64,000 nucleotides of DNA from Octopus sinensis (lineage: Eukaryota). Below the pieces are notes generated by a model that ran no database searches, was not told where the DNA came from, and was given only the letters and a program-made list of their open reading frames with translations. Shown here piece after piece: positions 3,784-63,431 of the stretch (its first letter is position 1; each line of letters opens with the position of its first letter). The DNA lies in the NCBI RefSeq assembly GCF_006345805.1, contig NC_042997.1:182962001-183026000 (forward strand). The letters are read 5' to 3'. Position numbers and translations under genes: made by a program.

Positions 3784-4943
3784 GTCTAAAGGTATATCTT
3801 GTCTTTTAGCCAATACAGTAAGGTAAATGAAAACAGATATTTGGTTTGTGAAGTGTTCATTGACAAATAAAGCAACTTCAATTTATTCAAATTTGCTATT
3901 GAGTGCATTAATAATTAATTAATTGAATAAGTCCTCAGCATTGTAAGAAAAACACTTATGCAAATTAAATTTACCAGTTTAGCATTGCCATATAAATTGC
4001 TGTTAGCTATATTCTTTTTATGAATAAAAGAGACAGGTACTGGCTTCTGAAGAAAGTCCCAAAAAGTATTGAAACCAGGCCTTTTCTGTCCTCAAAAAAT
4101 CTTGTGCTCTTCTACAAAGGCAATCTGTTGCCACTCCTCCCAAGAAAAATCTAGTGTACTAGCATTCTGGTCTACTAGAAACTCTTAACCAACAATGCTA
4201 TTGTGCACCAATTGTCATAAGTAATAACAAGTGAGTGTGTGTGTATGTATGCATGTATGCATGTGTGTATGTATGTATTGTATGTATGTATGTATGTATG
4301 TATTGTATGTATGTATTGTATGTATGTATAAGTTTATGTGTGCCTGTCTGTTTATTTTTACAAGAGTTGCTTAGTTACTTAACAAGTTAGTATGTCCTGT
4401 ATTTTAAATAGCTCCAGGATATTATGCTTTTGTATGACAAATAACATTTGATCACACTGGAAATGTTATTTAACTAAACAAAGCCTCTTCATGAATAGCA
4501 TGTTCTTCAAGGAATGGTGTGGCAAAGTTCAAGTCAACATAAGATTTGAAAGGAAATTCCGTTAGCCAATCTGTTACATAAAGTAATTTGAATTGTGATT
4601 ACAATGTTTTATTGTATGAATGAATGTATAAAAAGTAACAGAACACCAATCCCACACATTACTGGTGGCAGTAGCAGTGATAGCAACACCAGCAGAAGAG
4701 GAAAGGAAGAAAGGGAACTTGAGAGAGGGGGAAAATAAAGGAACATTTATAGCACACAGCTACTACTCTATTGTTGCTTAGCCTCAAATCAACAATAACC
4801 CAGCAGCCCCTGATCTAAAGTGTTTTGTTGGTAATTTTTTTTTTTTTGTATTCAGCCATAGTGTATCTAGGGCTATAGTATTAATGTCTTTTATAAGATG
4901 ATAGGGTATGGCTTATGGGAGATATGGCTGCTATTTCTTGTAT

Positions 4944-5176
4944 AAGGCGGCGAGCTGGCAGAAACGTTAGCAGGCTGAGTGAAATGCGTAGCAGTATTTC
5001 GTCTGCTGTTACGTTCTGAGTTCAAATTCCGCCGAGGTCGACTTTGCCTTTCATCCTTTTGAGGTCGATAAATTAAGTACCAGTTTCGCACTGGGGTCGA
5101 TGTAATCGACTTAATCCCTTTGTCTGTCCTTGTTTGTCTCCTCTATGTTTAGCCCCTTGTGGGTAATAAAGAAATA
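4944..5176 (+). mobile_element. tRNA-derived SINE with Nin-like central domain
   Basis: AAGGCGGCGAGCTGGCAGAA head, GAGTTCAAATTCC B box and GCCTTTCATCCTTT..GGTCGATAAATTAAGTACCAG. Near-identical copy at 63196-63431. Confidence 0.85.
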
Positions 5177-13894: not shown

Positions 13895-14285
13895 ATATTC
13901 TTTTCTATTTTAGGCACAAGGCCCAAAATTTTGGGGGAGGGGACCAGTCGATTAGTATGCAACTGGTACTTAATTTATCAACCCCAGAAGGATGAAAAGC
14001 AAAGTCAACCTCAGTGGTATTTGAACTTAGAACGTAAAGATAGATGAAATACCTATTTCTTTACTGCCCACAAGGGGCCACACACAGAAGGGACAAACAA
14101 GAACAGACAAATGGATTAAGTCAATTATATCGACCCAGTGCGTAACTGGTACTTATTTAATCGACCCCGAAAGGATGAAAGGCAAAGTCGACCTCGGCGG
14201 AATTTGAACTCAGAACATAGCGGCAAATGAAATACCGCTAAACATTTCACCCGGCATACTAACGTTTCTACAAGCTCGCCACCTT
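13895..14285 (-). mobile_element. Nin-like SINE tandem dimer
   Basis: Two successive CTGGTACTT..TTTA.TC.ACCCC..AAGGATGAAA.GCAAAGTC.ACCTC units; head at ~14285. Confidence 0.75.
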
Positions 14286-14989
14286 TATAACAGAAGAAAA
14301 TTGAAAATTGACATAAGGGAGTAAGTCAAACAATAGTCTGCCAATATGTATCAATAAAAAAATAGTTTAGATAATTGAAGTGATTTATTGAGTAATGAAC
14401 TGAGACCAAACTTATGTTGCATCTTTTGGCCCTTACAAAGAAAAGGTGTTAGAATCATTTTCTTTCATGAGATGCTTTGAAAAAACAGAAGAAAAAGAAA
14501 GGCAGAAATCTTGTTGATTGCTGACCAGTACATAGCAGATCCACATTTAAAGCCATTTTTCACTCTATACAAAACTCAACTGAAACACTGAATGAAGTAC
14601 AGTTTCCACATCTATGATGGTGTTGCTGCTACACATACAAACATCCAGTGTGTTGGATTTTAAACTTGGAGAAGCTCTAAACTATAAAAAGTATGATGGG
14701 CCTTTGTTAAAAGGTTACCAGAAGTCCTTATAAAAATTGGAAATATATATGTCTTTTCATTATATTGAGGAATCTGGAGATTGTGAAGACCTAAGCTGTA
14801 GATTGTTCAGTTGACTACACCTAAAGAAAGGAGTTACTTAACTGATTAGCATGAAGTCATTCACCAACACACACTAATATGCTGACACCTCACTCTGCCT
14901 CTTCTGTTGTGGGTGGAGGAGAAGATATCTTGATCCCCAATTTCTTGAGACAACTCAAGAAAGGAATTCTCATAGTTACAATCAAGTAA

Positions 14990-15385: not shown

Positions 15386-16307
15386 GGATAGGGCAGTAAG
15401 AGTGGTGACAGTGGACGCAGATGAAGTAGTGGCAGCAACAGCAAATGCAATGGCAGAAATGAAGATTATGAGGGTGGTGATTGTGGTGGTATTGATGATG
15501 ATGATGATGATGCTGATGGTGGTGGTGGTGGTGGTGGTGGTGAGGGGGGAAGGAGGAGGACGACGACGACAACAACATTCAGTTTAGGAAGTTCTTTTAA
15601 AATCAACTACTAACTTGAGAAATCCATCTGTGCTAACTGGAGAAATTGCTGCAGATCAGAGAGTGCTTCTGCTTAGCAATCCTGAGAAGCCTCGTCATAA
15701 AATACAAGGTCAGATACTAAGAAAGAGAAACAAGTTCAGAAAAGATTCAATGGTATATAGGGCAAGCGCACCTCAGAGAGTCCTCTATGATATCCAGGGT
15801 ATCACAAGGCATTTACTGCATATTATAAGACTCAGAGGAGAGGGAGCAAATTTTTACCACAATAACCATATATCAAGAAGTCCTAGATATATGTGGGAGA
15901 ACCCTTCAAAAAACCCCTTTCAATCCTTTCAATGACCATAGATAACTTTGAAACTTTTCTGATCATCTATAAATTCTCAAGATATGGCAAGCCATAGCAC
16001 CAGTTTTTATCCACTAAGAATTTCAATTTCCAACTAAACTTCTATTTAGTGTGCATACGTGTGTGTGTGTGTGTGTGTATGTGCATGCATTGTGTGTGAG
16101 TGTGCATGTGTGTGTGTGTGTGTGTGTAAATTTAATATACAATGTACGGATTTACATAATCCAGCCATGATAAAAAAAAGGCTCCTTTAGTGGACCCAGT
16201 TACAAACCACATAATAAACCAATATGTAGAAGAGTAATGTAGAGTCCCATGCAGTTGAAATCCAGTAAATCCAATCAGTGAAGATTATCTCATGAGGAGT
16301 ATACTGA

Positions 16308-16735
16308 GTATAAAGAAAGTCAGGAAGTATGAGATATATATTTCACCAGTTGATATGCATAGGATGATAGCCATTTTGCAGCCAACATCATGCAAAAAAT
16401 TAGTTATTTTAGTTATAATAAATTATTTTACATGTCTGCATTACATTATTTACAGTATTTACATTATTTACATTTGATGGATATTTGTCCTCATCTTTGT
16501 TGTTAACATGTTTCGGCTGATATATCCCCCACAGCCTTCATCAGGTGTCTTGGGGAAATTTCGAACTTGGGTTCTCATTCCTAAGGTATTTTTCGATGTT
16601 GTTGTTATTATTATTATTATTGTTGTTGTTGTTGTTGTTGTTATCATTATTATTATCATAATTATTATCATAATTAATTATTATCATAATTAATTATTAT
16701 TATTATTATTATCATAATTATTATCATTATTATTA

Positions 16736-16780
<45 letters not shown>

Positions 16781-16945
16781 TCACTGCTTGGAATTGAACT
16801 CAGAATCTTGGGGTTAGTAGCCCACGCTCTTATCCACTACGCCATATGTCCGTGTATATGGCGTAGTGGATAAGAGCGTATGCTACTAACCCCAAGATTC
16901 TGAGTTTGATTCCAGGCAGTGACCTGAATAATAATAATAATAATA

Positions 16946-16985
<40 letters not shown>

Positions 16986-17498
16986 AACAACATCAAAAAA
17001 TACCTTAGGAATGAGAACCTAGGTTCGAAATTTCCCGAGACACCTGATGAAGGATAAATCATCCGAAACGTGTTAACAACAAACAAGATGAGGACAAATA
17101 TCCATCAAATATAAATAATGTAAATAATATAAATAATGTACATAATTCCTCATCTCTTAAATATAGAACTGTAATGTCTGCATTAGTATGTATGTATGCT
17201 ATAAAATGCAGATATAGAAAGTTAGCTCTTCAGATCAACAGAATATCACAAAAAATTGATGTGACTGTGATATTCTTTTGATCTGAAAAGCTAGCCTTCT
17301 ATATCTGCATTGGTTTGTAAAATGTACAAAAGTACTATGCAATGTATAGCATACATACTAGTGCAGACATGTAAAATAATTTATCATACACTAAAATGAA
17401 TTATTTTTTCATGGATGTTGACTGTAAAATGGCCATCATCCTATTGATTTCAACTGGTGAAATAAATATATTTATCTCATACCTCCTGATTTTCCTTT

Positions 17499-17502
<4 letters not shown>
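16308..17502. mobile_element. ~465-bp foldback (palindromic) MITE split by an HHR-SINE insertion
   Basis: 16308-16443 is the imperfect reverse complement of ~17359-17502. Central hairpin at 17208-17310 (ATGCAGATATAGAA...TTCTATATCTGCAT). Confidence 0.75.
16444..17173. mobile_element. head-to-head inverted dimer of a tRNA-headed, hammerhead-bearing SINE-like element (copy 1)
   Basis: Two divergent tRNA-like heads (A box TGGCGTAGTGG, B-like box) at ~16780-16925, (AAT)n linkers and CTGATGAAGG...CCGAAAC motifs at ~16505-16549(-) and 17039-17074(+). Flanked by the perfect TSD ATGTCTGCATTA (16432-16443 / 17174-17185). Confidence 0.85.
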
Positions 17503-17580
<78 letters not shown>

Positions 17581-37330: not shown

Positions 37331-38005
37331 CTATTATCACGGTAATGAATATAATTTCTTTCATCGTTATCACTGTATCGATGTCACCAATATTACTGTA
37401 TTAAATATCAACTACCGTCGCTATCATTGTATTCAATACTACCACTGCCACAAGCGTACTACTTCTACCACGATCACTATCAAATGTACTACTTCTATCA
37501 CGATCACTATCTTTATCAAATGTCAGTTCTTCCACCATAATGATCAGCGTAGTCAAAATCACCGATGGGTCTTCGTCGTTTCACATAGAAGTCTCACTTT
37601 TTCGATCATCGACTGAATTTCCTACTCCTAAATTAACAAACAAGTGACTAAAAGAGGCATAGGCAACCTTTTTAGAGAAGCGGGCCGCATGACACGTGGA
37701 TCATCATCAGGCGGACTATACTACGAAAATATTTCAAGGTAATTCTTAGTTGGGCGTGTCCAACAAAATTTCACTCACCACTAGTTTCCAGGTTTGATTC
37801 TACTGCGTAGCACCTTGGGCAGATGTCATTTTCTGTAGCCTCGGAGAGACATATTGCCGATATAAACCCAGGCACCAGTTATATTTCACTTTTGTTATTG
37901 TTGTCGTTTTTAACATTAATCAACTACAGTTCTATATTTAAGAGATGAGGAATTATGTACATTATTTACATTTGACGGATATTTGTCCTCATCTTGTGTG
38001 TTGTT

Positions 38006-38051
38006 AACACAACGTTTCGGCTGATATACCCTCCAGCCTTCTTCAGGTGTC
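38006..38051 (-). ncRNA. minimal type-I hammerhead ribozyme (intact core)
   Basis: GACAC-CUGAAGA-a-GGCUG(gagggUAUAU)CAGCC-GAAA-CG-UU-GUGUU; palindromic stem III AACGTT. Confidence 0.8.
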
Positions 38052-38142
38052 TCGGGGAACTTTCGAACCTGGGTTCTCATTCCTGAAGTATTTTTCGATG
38101 TTGCTGTTGTTATTATTGTTGTTGTTATTATCATTATTATAA

Positions 38143-38404
38143 TTCTTTAAATGTCAACGCAGTCCACATTTTTTTATGCGAGATGTCATCTAAGAGCACA
38201 CGGTAGAGAAAAATTGCTATACTTTCTCTACTTAGGGAAAATACACAAAGCTTTTAAGCACTCTTCCCCATGGAGATCTGATGAAGAAAACTACAAATAA
38301 AATTTTAAAATTCCTTTGGAGAAATTTAAAAAAAAAGGATAAAGCGACGAAAGGTGTGACTCGTACAGTTAGAACATAGAAGAAGAAGAAGAAGAAGAAG
38401 AAGA
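38143..38404 (+). mobile_element. unclassified (GAA)n-tailed repeat, truncated copy
   Basis: Reverse complement of ~40516-40824; inserted in the (ATT)n linker of HHR-SINE copy 2. Confidence 0.7.
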
Positions 38405-38601
38405 ATATTATTAATATTATTATTATTATATTATTATTATTATTATTATTATTATTATCATCATCATTATTATTTTTCAGGTCACTGCCTGGAATCGAAC
38501 TCGGAATCTTGGGGTTAGTAGCCCCAAGAGCGCGGGCTACTAACCCCAAGATTCCGAGTTCGATTCCAGGCAGTGACCTGAAAAAAAAAAAAAAAAAATA
38601 A

Positions 38602-38692
<91 letters not shown>

Positions 38693-40515
38693 CAGCGAAA
38701 ATATCTTAGGAATGAGAATCCAGGTTCGAAATTTCCTCCAAGGCACTTGATGAAGGCTGGAGGGTATATCAGCCGAAACGTTGTGTTAACAACGAACAAG
38801 ATGAGGACAAATATCCGTCTAATGTAAATAATGTATCAGTCAACTAGTTAATTAATTAACTACTAAAATGTTTGAACAATTAGTCGGTTCACAAGTATCC
38901 TGTCGACGCCGTCTGTAACTTCATAAATTACCTGCTTTCGTCTACTCTACGCATGAGAGTATATCTTCAATGAGGACACAGGCGGCTGCGAAAGTATTCT
39001 TGAAGTCGCAGACGGCTAGCTACAAAAGGACACCGACTGATTGGTTAACTGATTGATTGAGTGGGTGAAGAAATAATTGGTTAAATGTTGACAAATAAAA
39101 AAAGAAAGAAAAAAGAAGCTAAATATAACCAGTGTGTGTTATCATATTGACAAAATAGCCCTTTCGATTTTCAAAGACTGTTTAACATGCGGTGGTGATG
39201 TAAAAAAGTGTAAGTAAATTGCGATAGATACCAGAAGTAGTGAAATCCCATCATTTCATCATATTTATATAGCATGAAAACATTGCATAGAACGTTCATA
39301 TATTTTTTCACCCTTTTCCCTTATTTATACAGATACGGGATAAATGAAGCAACTCTAGTTTAGCACTATCACCTGAGTTTTGTTCTTGGCAATTATACAC
39401 CACTCTTGAGTAGTCTGTACATAGCAGTTGTTTTCAACTCCATTTCCGGTCACGTGTAAATCGCGAGTCTATCTTGCGTGCAGACCCCATTTCAACCAAT
39501 CAGGAATTTTTTGTTCACGTGATAATTGTTAGAACTTTCCTTCAAAGAAGGACTTCTAGCGCTAAGGACCAGAGGGAATTGGAACCCCATTGGTTACGGT
39601 CTCTGGCGAGTTCCTCTCTCGACCTGTTTTCACAGCTTCATACTCAAACCAGCGCGATTCTCCTAATAGCTGTTCTCACAGTTCTATACCAAACCCGGAG
39701 ATGGATGATGAATCAACGCAACTATACATAATTGCAACAATCTGAAGAATCACTTTAATTATCTCCGGCACCTCAAAACACGATGTTCATACAAGATTAC
39801 TTTGTCATAACCAACTCTACAGATCTTGTTAGATCAACAAAATTTAAAGAATGGTTCGCAACTTCACAATTATATATATGTAACCTAAACTCATATAGGA
39901 AGTCTATCCATCGGATATCAAATGCACCACTCAATAAACACTCACAATACCCGGTCTGGGAATCGAAACCGCGATCCTATGACCGCGAGTCCGTTGCCCT
40001 ACCCACTGGGCCATTGCGCCTCCTGTGATAATAGTATTGAATATAGAGATAATGATAGTGGAGGATATGTTACTTGACAGAGTTGTAGTAATTGTTAAGG
40101 AAATGGATATCAAAACGGAAAAACCGTGTAATAGCTGTGATTTCTGTACACAGTAATCACTTTCACGGCTCTGCAAAGTGTTTATAACTCCAGCCGTGTA
40201 TAAATATTATTGCTTTGTAAATCAATGTATCCTTAACTTTTTCATTACTGTTTTGAGTTCAAATAATGCCGAAGTCAACTTTACATTTCATTCCTCAGAA
40301 GTTGATATAAACTGATTGTTCCCTCTCTCGAAATTTCTGGCCTTGTACCTACGTAGATTGGCAGAAGAGCGGTGGTTTGGCGGAATCGTTAGAACGTTCT
40401 GATATTTTATATTCTGAGTTCACATCCCACTGGGGCTAAGATTGTCTTTCATTCTTCCGAGGTCAATAAAATAAAGTACCAGTCATGTACTGTGTCAATT
40501 CTGGCCTTATCTAAA

Positions 40516-51756: not shown

Positions 51757-52027
51757 TACAGTTCTATATTTAAGAGATGAAGAATTATGTACATTATTTA
51801 CATTATTTACATTCGACGGATATTTGTCCTCATCTTCTTTGTTGTTAACAGAACGTTTCGGCTGATATACCCTCCAGCCTTCTTCGGGTGTCTCGGGGAA
51901 ATTTCGAACTTGGGTTCTCATTCCTAAGGTAGTTTTCGATGTTGTTGTTGTTGTTGTTGTTGTTGTTAGTGTTCAGGTCACTGCTTGGAATCGGACTCGG
52001 AATCTTGGGGTTAGTAGCCCTGAACAC

Positions 52028-52061
<34 letters not shown>

Positions 52062-52062
52062 T

Positions 52063-52093
<31 letters not shown>

Positions 52094-52486
52094 TAATAAT
52101 TATTAATAATAATAATAATAATAATAATTAATAATAATAATAATAATATTAATAATAATAATAATAATAATTAATAATTAATAATTATAATAATCATTAT
52201 TATTATTATTAATTAATAATAATAATAATAATAATAATAATCAATAATTAATAATAATAATAATAATAATTAATAATAATATAATAATAATAATAATAAT
52301 AATATAATAATAATAATTAATAATAATAATAAATAATAATAATAATAATTAATAATAATAATAATAATAATTAATAATAATAATAATATTAATAATTAAT
52401 AATTAATAATAACAATAATAATAATTAATATATAATAATAATATAATAATAATAATAATAATAATAATATTAATAATAATAATAAT

Positions 52487-52517
<31 letters not shown>

Positions 52518-52568
52518 TAATAATTAATAAGAATAATAATAATAATAATTAATAGAAATAATAATAAT

Positions 52569-52612
<44 letters not shown>

Positions 52613-52681
52613 TAATAATTAATAATAATATAATAATAATAATTAATAATAATAATAATATTAATTAATAATAATAATAAC

Positions 52682-52764
<83 letters not shown>

Positions 52765-52903
52765 TAATAATATAATAATAATAATAATAATTAATGATAA
52801 TAATAATTATAATAATAATTATAATAATAATAATAAATAATTAATAATATAAATAAGAATAATAATAATAATAATTAATAAAAATAAAAACAAAAATAAT
52901 AAT

Positions 52904-52986
<83 letters not shown>

Positions 52987-53156
52987 CAACAACAACAACA
53001 ATAATAACATCGAAAAATACTTTAGGAATGAGAACCCAGGTTCGAAATTTCCCCAAGACACCTGAAGAAGGCTGGAGGATATATCAGCCGAAACGTGTTA
53101 ACAACAAACAAGATGAGGACAAATATCCGTCGAATGTAAATAATATAAATAATGTA
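51757..53156. mobile_element. inverted dimer of tRNA-headed HHR-SINE (copy 3) with ~950-bp (AAT)n expansion
   Basis: Left arm carries the tail, HHR and partial tRNA head. Right arm has GACACCTGAAGAAGGCTGGAGGATATATCAGCCGAAACG; its tRNA head is lost. Confidence 0.85.
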
Positions 53157-62057: not shown

Positions 62058-63195
62058 ACATATAAGAAAATGCACTATTCCTTTTGCTTTGCAGTTAATT
62101 AATTCCAAAGTATATTATTAATTCCAAAATATATTATTACGGTTAAATCATTTCAAAATACAATACTATATTACCACAATCAAATTAATTTAAGATTACA
62201 TTCAAATAATTTCAATATACATTATTAATCACCCCAAAGAATATAATTGCAAAAGGCATAATTAAATATTTCAACGTACATAATTACAAACCAATTTCAC
62301 TTCCTGCAGAAGTTAGTCATTGCAATGCATGTATGTAATTGTTTGCTACTAACTTTCATTTAATATAGTGCCTACCGGAAGCAGGCGCATCATAGACGCA
62401 TAACGAAACAAGGGAGGTAATATATATGTTTGTACTCTCAAATTATATGTTTGTGCACTCAAATTAAGTAGAGATGTTAATTTTTGTTAACTATTCAAAA
62501 ACATGAGGGAAATATATTTTATAAATATTACTAAATGAATTTAAAATAGGTGTGAGCAATTGATTAATAATCTAAACTTGGTTTATATTATACAGTATAA
62601 AATGTTTCTTGAATGGTTTTTTGTTTTGTCATATTTCCGGCACTTTAATGTAATGAGAATTGTTTAAAATTTGGGTGCTGAGTTCTTTCACGTCTATCTA
62701 AATGCTCCGGGTCGAATTCTCTTGTGTTCGGATCATGTAGTTACTGTCAATGAACTGCCATGCATTTTCTAGGTGACACAGGTTTGGCCGATATAATTTT
62801 CCCCAGACCAAGATATGAATTAAGTTTTCTATCTTTTATTCTAGATTCGTCTAGTTTTGTAAGTGGAACTTGGAGCCTTCGGTTATATTAACCTAAATTC
62901 CACAACTCGATGTTCCTTATTTTTTTAACGTCGTCACTCATTAAAAGTTTCTTTAATGAATGTGGTAAGCTGTTTCACAATACATATTTCACATTCCGCA
63001 ACGATTTGATTGTAATGATATACTTTAGAATTAATAAACTCTGTGTGTGTGCGCGCGCGCGCGTATGTAAGTCAATATGCGAGCATGCACGTAAACATTA
63101 CCAATGTCACATACTTAATGCATATCTTTTGTTTATACGGTTATTAACTGCACGATTTCGCCCAGGAAAATACCTTTATGACGTCAAATATTTAA

Positions 63196-63431
63196 AAGGC
63201 GGCGAGCTGGCAGAATCGTTAGCACGCCGGGCGAAATGCGTAACCGTATTTCGTCTGCCGTTATGTTCTGAGTTCAAATTCCGCCGAGGTCGACTTTGCC
63301 TTTCATCCTTTCGGGGTCGATTAAATAAGTACCAGTTACGCACTAGGGTCGATGTAATCGACTTAATCCGTGTGAGTCTGTCCTTGTTTGTCCCCTCTAT
63401 ATTTAGCCCCTTGTGGGTAGTAAAGAAATAA
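63196..63431 (+). mobile_element. Nin-like tRNA-derived SINE
   Basis: Full copy similar to 4944-5176, with more CpGs intact. Confidence 0.88.

What the first reader, a model, noticed from the sequence alone, without database searches (positions are those of the whole stretch)
16444..17173. Pol III tRNA-headed hammerhead SINE that integrates as a head-to-head dimer: candidate Penelope-mobilised SINE/retrozyme system
Seen: each arm consists of a tRNA-like head with A/B boxes, an (AAT)n linker, ~60 nt, a minimal type-I hammerhead (GACAC CUGA[U/A]GA a GGCUG..CAGCC GAAA CGUU GUGUU) and an AT-rich end. The two arms diverge from back-to-back heads. The whole dimer is flanked by a perfect 12-bp TSD (ATGTCTGCATTA) that splits a MITE, so it inserted as one unit. 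The same architecture recurs at 37925-38835 and 51757-53156. Known: minimal HHRs with palindromic stem III and inverted terminal repeats are hallmarks of Penelope-like elements, whereas SINEs normally borrow LINE 3' ends; Schistosoma SM-alpha is a partial precedent for a Pol III-type HHR repeat. Inference: a non-autonomous Pol III SINE that uses a PLE-type HHR terminus and PLE RT/GIY-YIG machinery.
Basis: partly seen in the sequence, partly recalled or inferred. Interest (0 to 1): 0.88.

Follow-up and report, generated by a model that had tools for sequence, protein, structure and literature searches.

The report
Penelope retrotransposon with a tRNA promoter
This repeat is not a separate SINE but the end-repeat of a protein-coding Penelope-type jumping gene, inserted as a back-to-back pair; unusually, that repeat begins with a tRNA-derived promoter that may let RNA polymerase III transcribe the whole gene, and about one copy in five carries a 3-base deletion at the predicted ribozyme cut site, likely a scar of cleavage inside the cell.

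Summary
The inverted pair and 12-bp TSD are real, but each arm is the pseudo-LTR and first ~55 codons of an autonomous Penelope/Poseidon-type retrotransposon. ORF ends run into the same tRNA head (28 of 28); the tail runs on in frame into the ORF; short and ORF-linked copies differ at none of 264 columns. Pairs are not a preformed dimer: one arm has a 34-nt tail, the other not (57 of 65), the known Penelope signature. About 15,000 insertions. Two things look new. (1) The repeat starts with a tRNA-derived head with A/B boxes; 37 of 48 arms end there, and the 2.3-kb ORF has no shared TTTT terminator, so Pol III may transcribe the whole element (about 40%; no RNA evidence). (2) A 3-nt deletion across the predicted hammerhead cut site occurs in 40 of 220 arms, independently in paired arms: a likely scar of cleavage in vivo. 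This scan noted the element earlier on other genomes (e1-8669850 read it alike).

The parts
16432..16443 (+). Left target-site duplication (12 bp)
17174..17185 (+). Right target-site duplication (12 bp)
16444..16853 (-). Tail-less arm: inverted pLTR copy (head, linker, ORF start, hammerhead), ending at the inner of the two 3' end points
16777..16851 (-). tRNA-derived head of left arm, A box 16844-16834, B box 16801-16790
16846..16859 (.). Palindromic head-to-head junction; the palindrome is native to the autonomous element just upstream of the head
16505..16549 (-). Hammerhead of left arm, with 3-nt deletion across the predicted cut site
16576..16578 (-). Inferred ORF start codon of left arm
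16854..17173 (+). Tailed arm: pLTR copy ending at the outer 3' end point
16854..16926 (+). tRNA-derived head of right arm, A box 16859-16869, B box 16902-16913
16927..16993 (+). (AAT)n/(AAC)n linker; in other copies a target for Dong/R4-like LINE pieces and another repeat
17011..17173 (+). First ~55 codons of the Penelope-like ORF (decayed in this copy; open in L284, L286, L289)
17039..17074 (+). Hammerhead of right arm, stem II rearranged, 3-nt deletion across predicted cut site
17140..17173 (+). 34-nt Penelope 'tail', present on one arm only; coding in the autonomous element
16307..17503 (.). Palindromic host repeat (MITE-like) split by the insert
37925..38835 (.). Second insert: tailed arm on minus strand with intact hammerhead (38006-38051) and a nested insertion in the linker; tail-less arm on plus; both heads 5'-truncated
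51757..53156 (.). Third insert: tailed arm on minus strand, tail-less head-less arm on plus with ~1 kb (AAT)n

Best explanation
The insert is a pair of copies of the terminal repeat of an autonomous Penelope/Poseidon-type retrotransposon, a repeat that runs tRNA-derived head, (AAT)n, ORF start, hammerhead, tail, and it was likely made by the element's own RT/GIY-YIG protein from an RNA that likely starts at the head. Shown: unit structure, identity of short and ORF-linked copies, one-tailed inverted layout with ~9-14 bp TSD, pile-up of 5' ends at the head, recurrent deletion at the predicted cut site. Inferred steps: (1) transcription starts about 5 nt before the head, 13 nt before the A box, by Pol III (about half of my weight) or Pol II; (2) the protein cuts both target strands and starts two cDNAs at the two internal sites 34 nt apart, as Poseidon_Ac does in vitro; (3) when it does so in the 5' repeat of the RNA, only ~300 nt lie upstream, which gives the SINE-like copies, while starts in the 3' repeat give ORF-linked copies; (4) the hammerhead is often cut, the RT jumps the break, and a jump through a 2-nt microhomology drops 3 nt; (5) cDNA ends are joined by microhomology, or fold back and anneal at the 5' palindrome, giving head-to-head junctions.
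For: ORF end followed by head in 28 of 28 loci seeded with ORF DNA, body follows in 26; 19 of 20 loci seeded with a foreign protein whose ORF reaches its end continue into the head. Body or tail directly precedes the ORF in 19 of 27 independent loci seeded with ORF 5' DNA, in frame without stops for 110 codons in 3 of 8 translated; tail residues align to N-termini of full-length relatives (E 4e-19). Near-complete unit in L152, RVT_1 hit 1.3e-7; 551-codon open frame in L467. No column of 264 separates 66 ORF-linked from 127 short copies. 60 of 87 tail-anchored loci have an inverted piece; 46 of 48 inverted bodies end tail-less; 28 of 48 have a TSD match of 10+ nt vs 0.6% in controls. 37 of 48 arms that reach the head start stop within 16 nt, 7.0% per nt vs 0.7% in the head and 0.28% upstream; only 700 of 4645 intact heads keep the native upstream bases, 1196 show the fold-back. 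Deletion in 40 of 220 family A and 5 of 26 family B arms vs at most 5% at 184 like sites; paired arms agree at a subfamily marker (28 of 30, 16.1 expected) but not at the deletion (21 of 31, 21.3 expected). Literature: two internal RT starts bound the tail, both strands cut, ORF overlaps the hammerhead (PMC11167929).
Against: No RNA start, end or strand bias in three RNA-seq runs of a related organism (fragmented libraries have little power). 5' ends are not enriched at the predicted cut site (6 of 131), which cleavage without a jump would predict. Fixed repeat lengths and 5' palindromes occur in Penelope elements without tRNA heads (PMC3846280), so the 5' pile-up does not itself point to Pol III. 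TTTT absence is one evolutionary observation (P 0.01-0.05); 8 of 55 control PLE pieces, among them a tRNA-free family, and two Dong-like pieces also have none. No intact copy was seen (copies 83-91% alike). Poseidon_Ac needed no cleavage in vitro and no reads ended at its cut site. GIY-YIG is called by motif and position only; Pfam gave no hit on our copies.
Confidence: 0.75

Rival explanations
1. Short copies became a true SINE: once inserted they are transcribed by Pol III from their own head and are copied in trans by the Penelope protein, so most of the ~15,000 inserts descend from short masters.
For: Short copies keep A/B boxes at SINE spacing (13 nt from the 5' end, 33 nt apart; consensus in PMC8969392); most heads lack upstream ORF sequence; pLTR reads are about 100-fold above ORF reads; paired arms share rare variants above chance (54 of 807 vs 21.9), which fits many source copies; pLTRs can act in trans (PMC3846280).
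Against: No diagnostic column and similar divergence (6.7% vs 8.2%) between short and ORF-linked copies; common body indels keep the frame; Poseidon_Ac needs ORF sequence to +172, past its RT start sites, and short copies end at the tail; head-started copies that run on into the ORF exist (L284, L289, L495).
Confidence: 0.2
2. The tRNA piece is a fossil SINE head captured in the repeat; the element is an ordinary Pol II Penelope element, and the 5' pile-up reflects a Pol II start or RT arrest at the palindrome.
For: Drosophila Penelope has an internal TATA-less promoter with its start inside the pLTR (PMC2377424); pLTR palindromes are known; a capless Pol III mRNA must still be translated; TTTT-free ORFs occur without tRNA heads.
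Against: A/B boxes are kept in two families about 20% apart; the start lies where a tRNA-type promoter would put it; TTTT and 4-of-5 T windows are low (1.6-3.9 per kb, z mostly -1.2 to -2.4, vs controls z -0.05 +/- 0.74) while TTT is not; nine LINE families of the same genome have 0.9-6.7 TTTT per kb. This rival shares the structure of the best explanation and differs only in the polymerase.
Confidence: 0.4
3. One reading: a preformed head-to-head SINE dimer or retrozyme that moves as one unit through self-cleaved or circular RNA.
For: One TSD flanks both arms; full head-to-head junctions recur at the palindrome.
Against: Only 5 of 87 tail-anchored loci have two near-complete heads joined (my count of the table); arm lengths and junctions vary; 57 of 65 pairs are tailed plus tail-less; the deletion is independent between arms; divergent arms give no tandem hammerhead; retrozymes are head-to-tail tandems without ORF link (10.64898/2026.07.22.740005).
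Confidence: 0.03

Closest known systems
Poseidon_Ac (PAc) of Anolis carolinensis, Penelope/Poseidon PLE (PMC11167929)
   Same: RT then C-terminal GIY-YIG; ORF start overlaps the hammerhead region; tail of 30-40 nt inside the ORF 5' end between two end points; inserts consistent with both strands being extended.
   Different: No tRNA head reported; here the ATG lies before the hammerhead; here a recurrent deletion marks the predicted cut site, whereas no reads ended at the PAc cut site.
Adineta Pen2/Pen2a/Pen3a and Drosophila virilis Penelope (PMC3846280, PMC2377424)
   Same: Inverted pLTR, one-sided tail, 8-10 bp TSD, pLTR holding the first codons, palindrome at the pLTR 5' end, start inside the pLTR.
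   Different: Their promoters are TATA/Inr-like or DPE-like (Pol II type); here A/B boxes of tRNA origin.
TRIMp3 elements Helenus, Ajax, Cassandra (PMC10886601)
   Same: Small-RNA-derived Pol III promoter inside a terminal repeat.
   Different: They are non-autonomous LTR elements of 311-1263 bp; that paper holds that autonomous partners must use Pol II. Here the head is in an autonomous, non-LTR element.
Non-LTR retrozymes and Schistosoma SM-alpha (10.64898/2026.07.22.740005; PMC6765202)
   Same: Type I hammerhead of Penelope pLTR kind in short repeats.
   Different: Those are head-to-tail tandems without ORF; these are dispersed inverted pairs identical to the autonomous pLTR.
Octopus tRNA-derived SINEs (Ohshima and Okada 1994, seen only as cited in PMC4758252, PMC4824008)
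   Same: tRNA-derived heads, probably the same host group.

Membership tests
EN+ Penelope-like element (Penelope/Poseidon type) | Single ORF with PLE-type RT | tested here: met
   RVT_1 1.3e-7; DKG, YGLPKIHK and xxDD motifs in a 551-codon open frame; 56-68% to P0001-P0007. Motif names as PLE hallmarks: DKG from PMC8557442, others recalled.
EN+ Penelope-like element (Penelope/Poseidon type) | C-terminal GIY-YIG endonuclease | tested here: inconclusive
   VYSIP..YKGET, R..EH, LKEA at the C-terminus; Pfam GIY-YIG only weak on relative P0009 (E 0.017), none on our copies; no PDB hit.
EN+ Penelope-like element (Penelope/Poseidon type) | pLTRs from partial tandems, inverted 5'-truncated copy, one-sided 30-40 nt tail, TSD | tested here: met
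EN+ Penelope-like element (Penelope/Poseidon type) | Placement in the Poseidon clade by RT phylogeny | not testable with these tools
   No named reference PLE proteins were at hand; clade inferred from domain order.
PLE minimal type I hammerhead (PMC4209133) | Core, extra base between 9 and 10.1, G10.1-C11.1, palindromic 15.2-16.2, stems I and II | tested here: met
   Intact copy 38006-38051 folds into stems I and II as MFE, -12.0 kcal/mol; features. Not met in the two arms at 16444-17173. Rfam has no hit.
PLE minimal type I hammerhead (PMC4209133) | Self-cleavage (as dimer or protein-assisted) | not testable with these tools
   Indirect only: recurrent deletion at the predicted site; no excess of 5' ends there.
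tRNA-derived SINE | tRNA-derived head with A and B boxes 10-15 nt from the 5' end | tested here: met
   Best match host tRNA-Arg(TCT), z 7-8, among 6 amino-acid types retrieved; relaxed ARAGORN of 30 heads vs 31 of 1000 shuffles; no call at default or by Rfam.
tRNA-derived SINE | Non-autonomous lineage distinct from its partner except at the 3' end | tested here: not met
   Whole arm is the partner's pLTR; 0 of 264 columns differ.
tRNA-derived SINE | Pol III transcription | tested here: inconclusive
   Terminator avoidance moderate; RNA-seq uninformative.
Non-LTR retrozyme | Head-to-tail tandem units each with a hammerhead, no ORF | tested here: not met
   Dispersed inverted pairs and ORF-linked copies.

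The most novel reading that the evidence does not exclude
An autonomous, protein-coding retrotransposon transcribed by RNA polymerase III: a Penelope element captured a tRNA head as its promoter, purged Pol III terminators from a 2.6-kb unit, and makes its own SINE-like copies by starting reverse transcription in the 5' repeat of its RNA; its hammerhead cuts that RNA in vivo and leaves a 3-nt scar in one copy in five.
Probability: 0.35. Interest if true: 0.88.

Novelty: new variant of a known kind. Interest (0 to 1): 0.66.

Why it matters
Autonomous retrotransposons are held to need Pol II (or a Pol I read-through); a Pol III mRNA for an ~830-residue RT/endonuclease would break that rule and raise the question of capless translation. 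It also shows a route to SINE-like repeats without a SINE, which matters for repeat annotation in genomes where most SINE families are unclassified (PMC13282606). The deletion at the predicted cut site speaks to an open question, whether Penelope hammerheads cut in vivo during transposition, and gives a genomic read-out that can be looked for in any high-copy Penelope family.

Tried and rejected
Rfam and default ARAGORN: no tRNA or hammerhead call. A spliced intron in the tail, considered from GT..AG ends: dropped because the frame is open through it and aligns to relatives. Dong/R4 LINE as the partner: pieces sit inside the (AAT)n linker as later insertions; a guess that they also avoid TTTT failed, 3 of 4 further pieces have it. 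B-box-like hits near metagenome PLE ORFs: inspected, not tRNA heads; that family has a T-rich pLTR; ARAGORN found nothing in 40 of the 80 loci given. Enrichment of 5' ends at the cut site: none. RNA: no RNA holder listed; reads of three runs of a related organism showed both strands alike and no start or end pile-up; a second lay fell on ORF interior and showed only presence in three organisms. PDB search empty. DNA around the closest relatives P0001-P0007 could not be obtained, so whether they carry tRNA heads is open. Papers not held: Albertin 2015, Lunse 2017. No fold or complex prediction was run.

Full report
Observation. The insert at 16444-17173 is flanked by an exact 12-bp duplication and splits a palindromic repeat whose far arm shows the unsplit site. 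Two arms diverge from a palindromic junction; each has A and B boxes, an (AAT)n linker and a hammerhead-like body. Only the right arm carries the last 34 nt. Both arms here have lost 3 nt across the predicted cut site, so the quoted ribozyme is intact only at 38006-38051. The two other inserts have truncated or missing heads. The host is a 2.72-Gb genome; I take it to be an octopus from its repeat content (recall) and from earlier notes, which I did not test.

Copy number and layout. A 26-nt tail word occurs 4948 times; 18 of 55 tails in loci picked otherwise match it exactly, which gives about 15,000 inserts; 3 inserts in 400 kb of arbitrary DNA give 4,000-60,000. Of the first 100 tail matches I took 90 and dropped 3 segmental duplicates. 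Of 87, 60 have an inverted piece within 1.5 kb; 46 of 48 inverted bodies end 20-50 nt short of the tail end; 28 of 48 show a flank match of 10 or more bases against 0.6% for swapped flanks. Over all loci held, 57 of 65 divergent pairs are one tailed plus one tail-less arm. Only 5 of 87 have two near-complete heads joined (my count). This is the Penelope signature: inverted 5'-truncated copy and a one-sided 30-40 nt tail (PMC8557442, passages; PMC3846280, passages), explained for Poseidon_Ac by two internal RT start sites and cutting of both strands (PMC11167929, main text). A metagenome PLE family without tRNA head shows the same layout.

The arm is the autonomous element's own repeat. A divergent arm in L014 led to a sister family B; in five of its 20 loci, and in 2 of 30 head-seeded family A loci, a PLE ORF ends about 30 nt before the head. 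Seeding with ORF-end DNA gave 28 independent loci, all followed by the head, 26 also by the body. Seeding with a foreign protein gave the head after 19 of 20 ORFs that reach their end. L152 holds a near-complete unit with TSD-like ends. Seeding with ORF 5' DNA, 19 of 27 independent loci have the body or tail directly upstream; from an ATG before the hammerhead the frame is open for 110 codons in 3 of 8 copies translated, and the tail residues align with N-termini of full-length relatives. L284, L289 and L495 begin at the head and run into the ORF. Between 66 ORF-linked and 127 short copies no column of 264 differs after correction and none has a different majority. Copies are 83-91% alike, so the burst is old.

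The head. It aligns best to a host tRNA-Arg(TCT) (z 7-8) among the few tRNA types retrieved; relaxed ARAGORN draws a cloverleaf for 7 of 30 heads against 31 of 1000 shuffles; default ARAGORN and Rfam do not. Of 72 head-bearing arms in 86 tail-anchored loci, 48 reach the head start and 37 stop within -7..+8; the rate is 7.0% per base, against 0.7% inside the head and 0.28% upstream. Genome-wide, 700 of 4645 intact heads keep the native upstream word and 1196 show an inverted-head word, often a short fold-back at a palindrome native to the element. Paired heads share rare variants (22 of 169, 5.4 expected; bodies 54 of 807, 21.9 expected). I read this as an RNA 5' end at the head with some self-priming; pLTR palindromes and self-priming are already described.

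Pol III test. Over 98 ORF segments from 80 loci (65 kb) there are 415 runs of 3+ T but 20 of 4+ T, none shared by more than 3 of 28 copies; so the source had none in 2.29 kb (expected 2.6-4.5; P 0.01-0.05). Controls: 55 of the 80 metagenome PLE loci (short and duplicate rows left out) have 190 runs in 72 kb, but 8 have none; nine LINE families of this genome have 0.9-6.7 per kb; two Dong-like pieces have none, three of four others have some. Windows with 4 T of 5 are low in 8 of 9 long copies (z -1.2 to -2.4, one -0.1) against 23 controls at -0.05 +/- 0.74, lowest -1.9. This is one lineage, so the support is moderate. RNA-seq of a related organism gave equal strands and no start or end pile-up. 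Drosophila Penelope uses an internal Pol II-like promoter in its pLTR (PMC2377424, passages); Kojima 2024 describes Pol III promoters only in non-autonomous LTR elements and says autonomous partners must use Pol II (PMC10886601, passages).

The hammerhead. The intact form meets the Penelope minimal-hammerhead features (PMC4209133, passages) and folds into stems I and II; stem III has no loop and would need a dimer or protein (PMC6765202, passages). Of 220 family A arms with a readable site, 40 carry the same 3-nt deletion across the predicted cut, as do 5 of 26 family B arms. At 184 ORF sites with the same 2-nt microhomology the rate is at most 5%, median 0. The deletion is independent of a subfamily marker (P 0.26). 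Paired arms agree at that marker in 28 of 30 (16.1 expected) but at the deletion in 21 of 31 (21.3 expected). So it arises anew per arm, which also rules out a master dimer and full fold-back copying. An RT jump from the 3' to the 5' cleavage product through the repeated dinucleotide gives exactly this product (inference). Against: 5' ends are not enriched at the site (6 of 131), a DNA slippage hot spot is not excluded, and Poseidon_Ac showed protein-assisted cleavage in vitro but no read ends in vivo.

Mechanism and verdict. An RNA starting at the head carries the protein's two RT start sites near +270 and +300; starts there give SINE-like copies, starts in the downstream repeat give ORF-linked ones; the two cDNAs meet by microhomology or at the palindrome. 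Structure and PLE origin: about 95%. Short copies mainly from the autonomous RNA: about 75-80%. Pol III for the whole element: about 40%. Cleavage scar: about 60%.

Novelty. The layout is known. A tRNA head in an autonomous PLE and the deletion scar were not found in ten full-text searches. Octopus repeat surveys list Penelope and unclassified SINE families without such detail (PMC13282606, PMC8967140, passages); I read no supplements, and their libraries, Repbase or Dfam may hold the family. The retrozyme preprint (parts 1-3 of 5; supplements closed) covers tandem units only. PMC4758252, PMC4824008 and PMC8969392 were seen as passages. This scan met the element on other genomes: e1-8669850 reads it as I do, four notes read it as a SINE; these are unchecked notes, not support.

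Noticed in passing
L071-L090 (e.g. G000:C3:73807634-73807817): Sister family B, about 80% alike in the ORF, with the same tRNA head, an in-frame insertion before the hammerhead, a short linker and the same 3-nt deletion; 2795 first-look candidates.
   Followed up: partly
L006, L024, L093, L101, L114, L123: Dong/R4-like LINE pieces (RT or C-terminal nuclease part; label recalled) inserted in the (AAT)n linker, in the same orientation as the head.
   Followed up: partly
L005, L092, L094, L109: A ~500-bp non-coding repeat also sits in the (AAT)n linker; possibly a short element that borrows the Dong/R4 targeting.
   Followed up: no
L014:1501-1955: One insert joins a family A arm to a family B arm, suggesting two RNAs or a template switch in one event.
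   Followed up: no
window:36881-40116 and 38144-38335/40632-40823: Long inverted repeats (145 nt, 94%; 192 nt, 96%) around the second insert; one arm lies inside the linker of its tailed arm.
   Followed up: no
window:52018-53000: The linker is expanded to about 1 kb of degenerate (AAT)n.
   Followed up: no
body positions 133-157 in all copies: A 9-nt in-frame repeat varies from 1 to 5 units at the tail-less end point; could be slippage at RT initiation.
   Followed up: partly
L318, L329, L333, L338, L355: A metagenome-held PLE family with minimal hammerhead, inverted tail-less arms, T-rich pLTR and no TTTT in most ORF copies, without tRNA head.
   Followed up: partly
window:24776-25469, 4939-5176, 14049-14286, 63195-63374: A ~184-bp repeat in a short tandem array and dispersed copies.
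   Followed up: no
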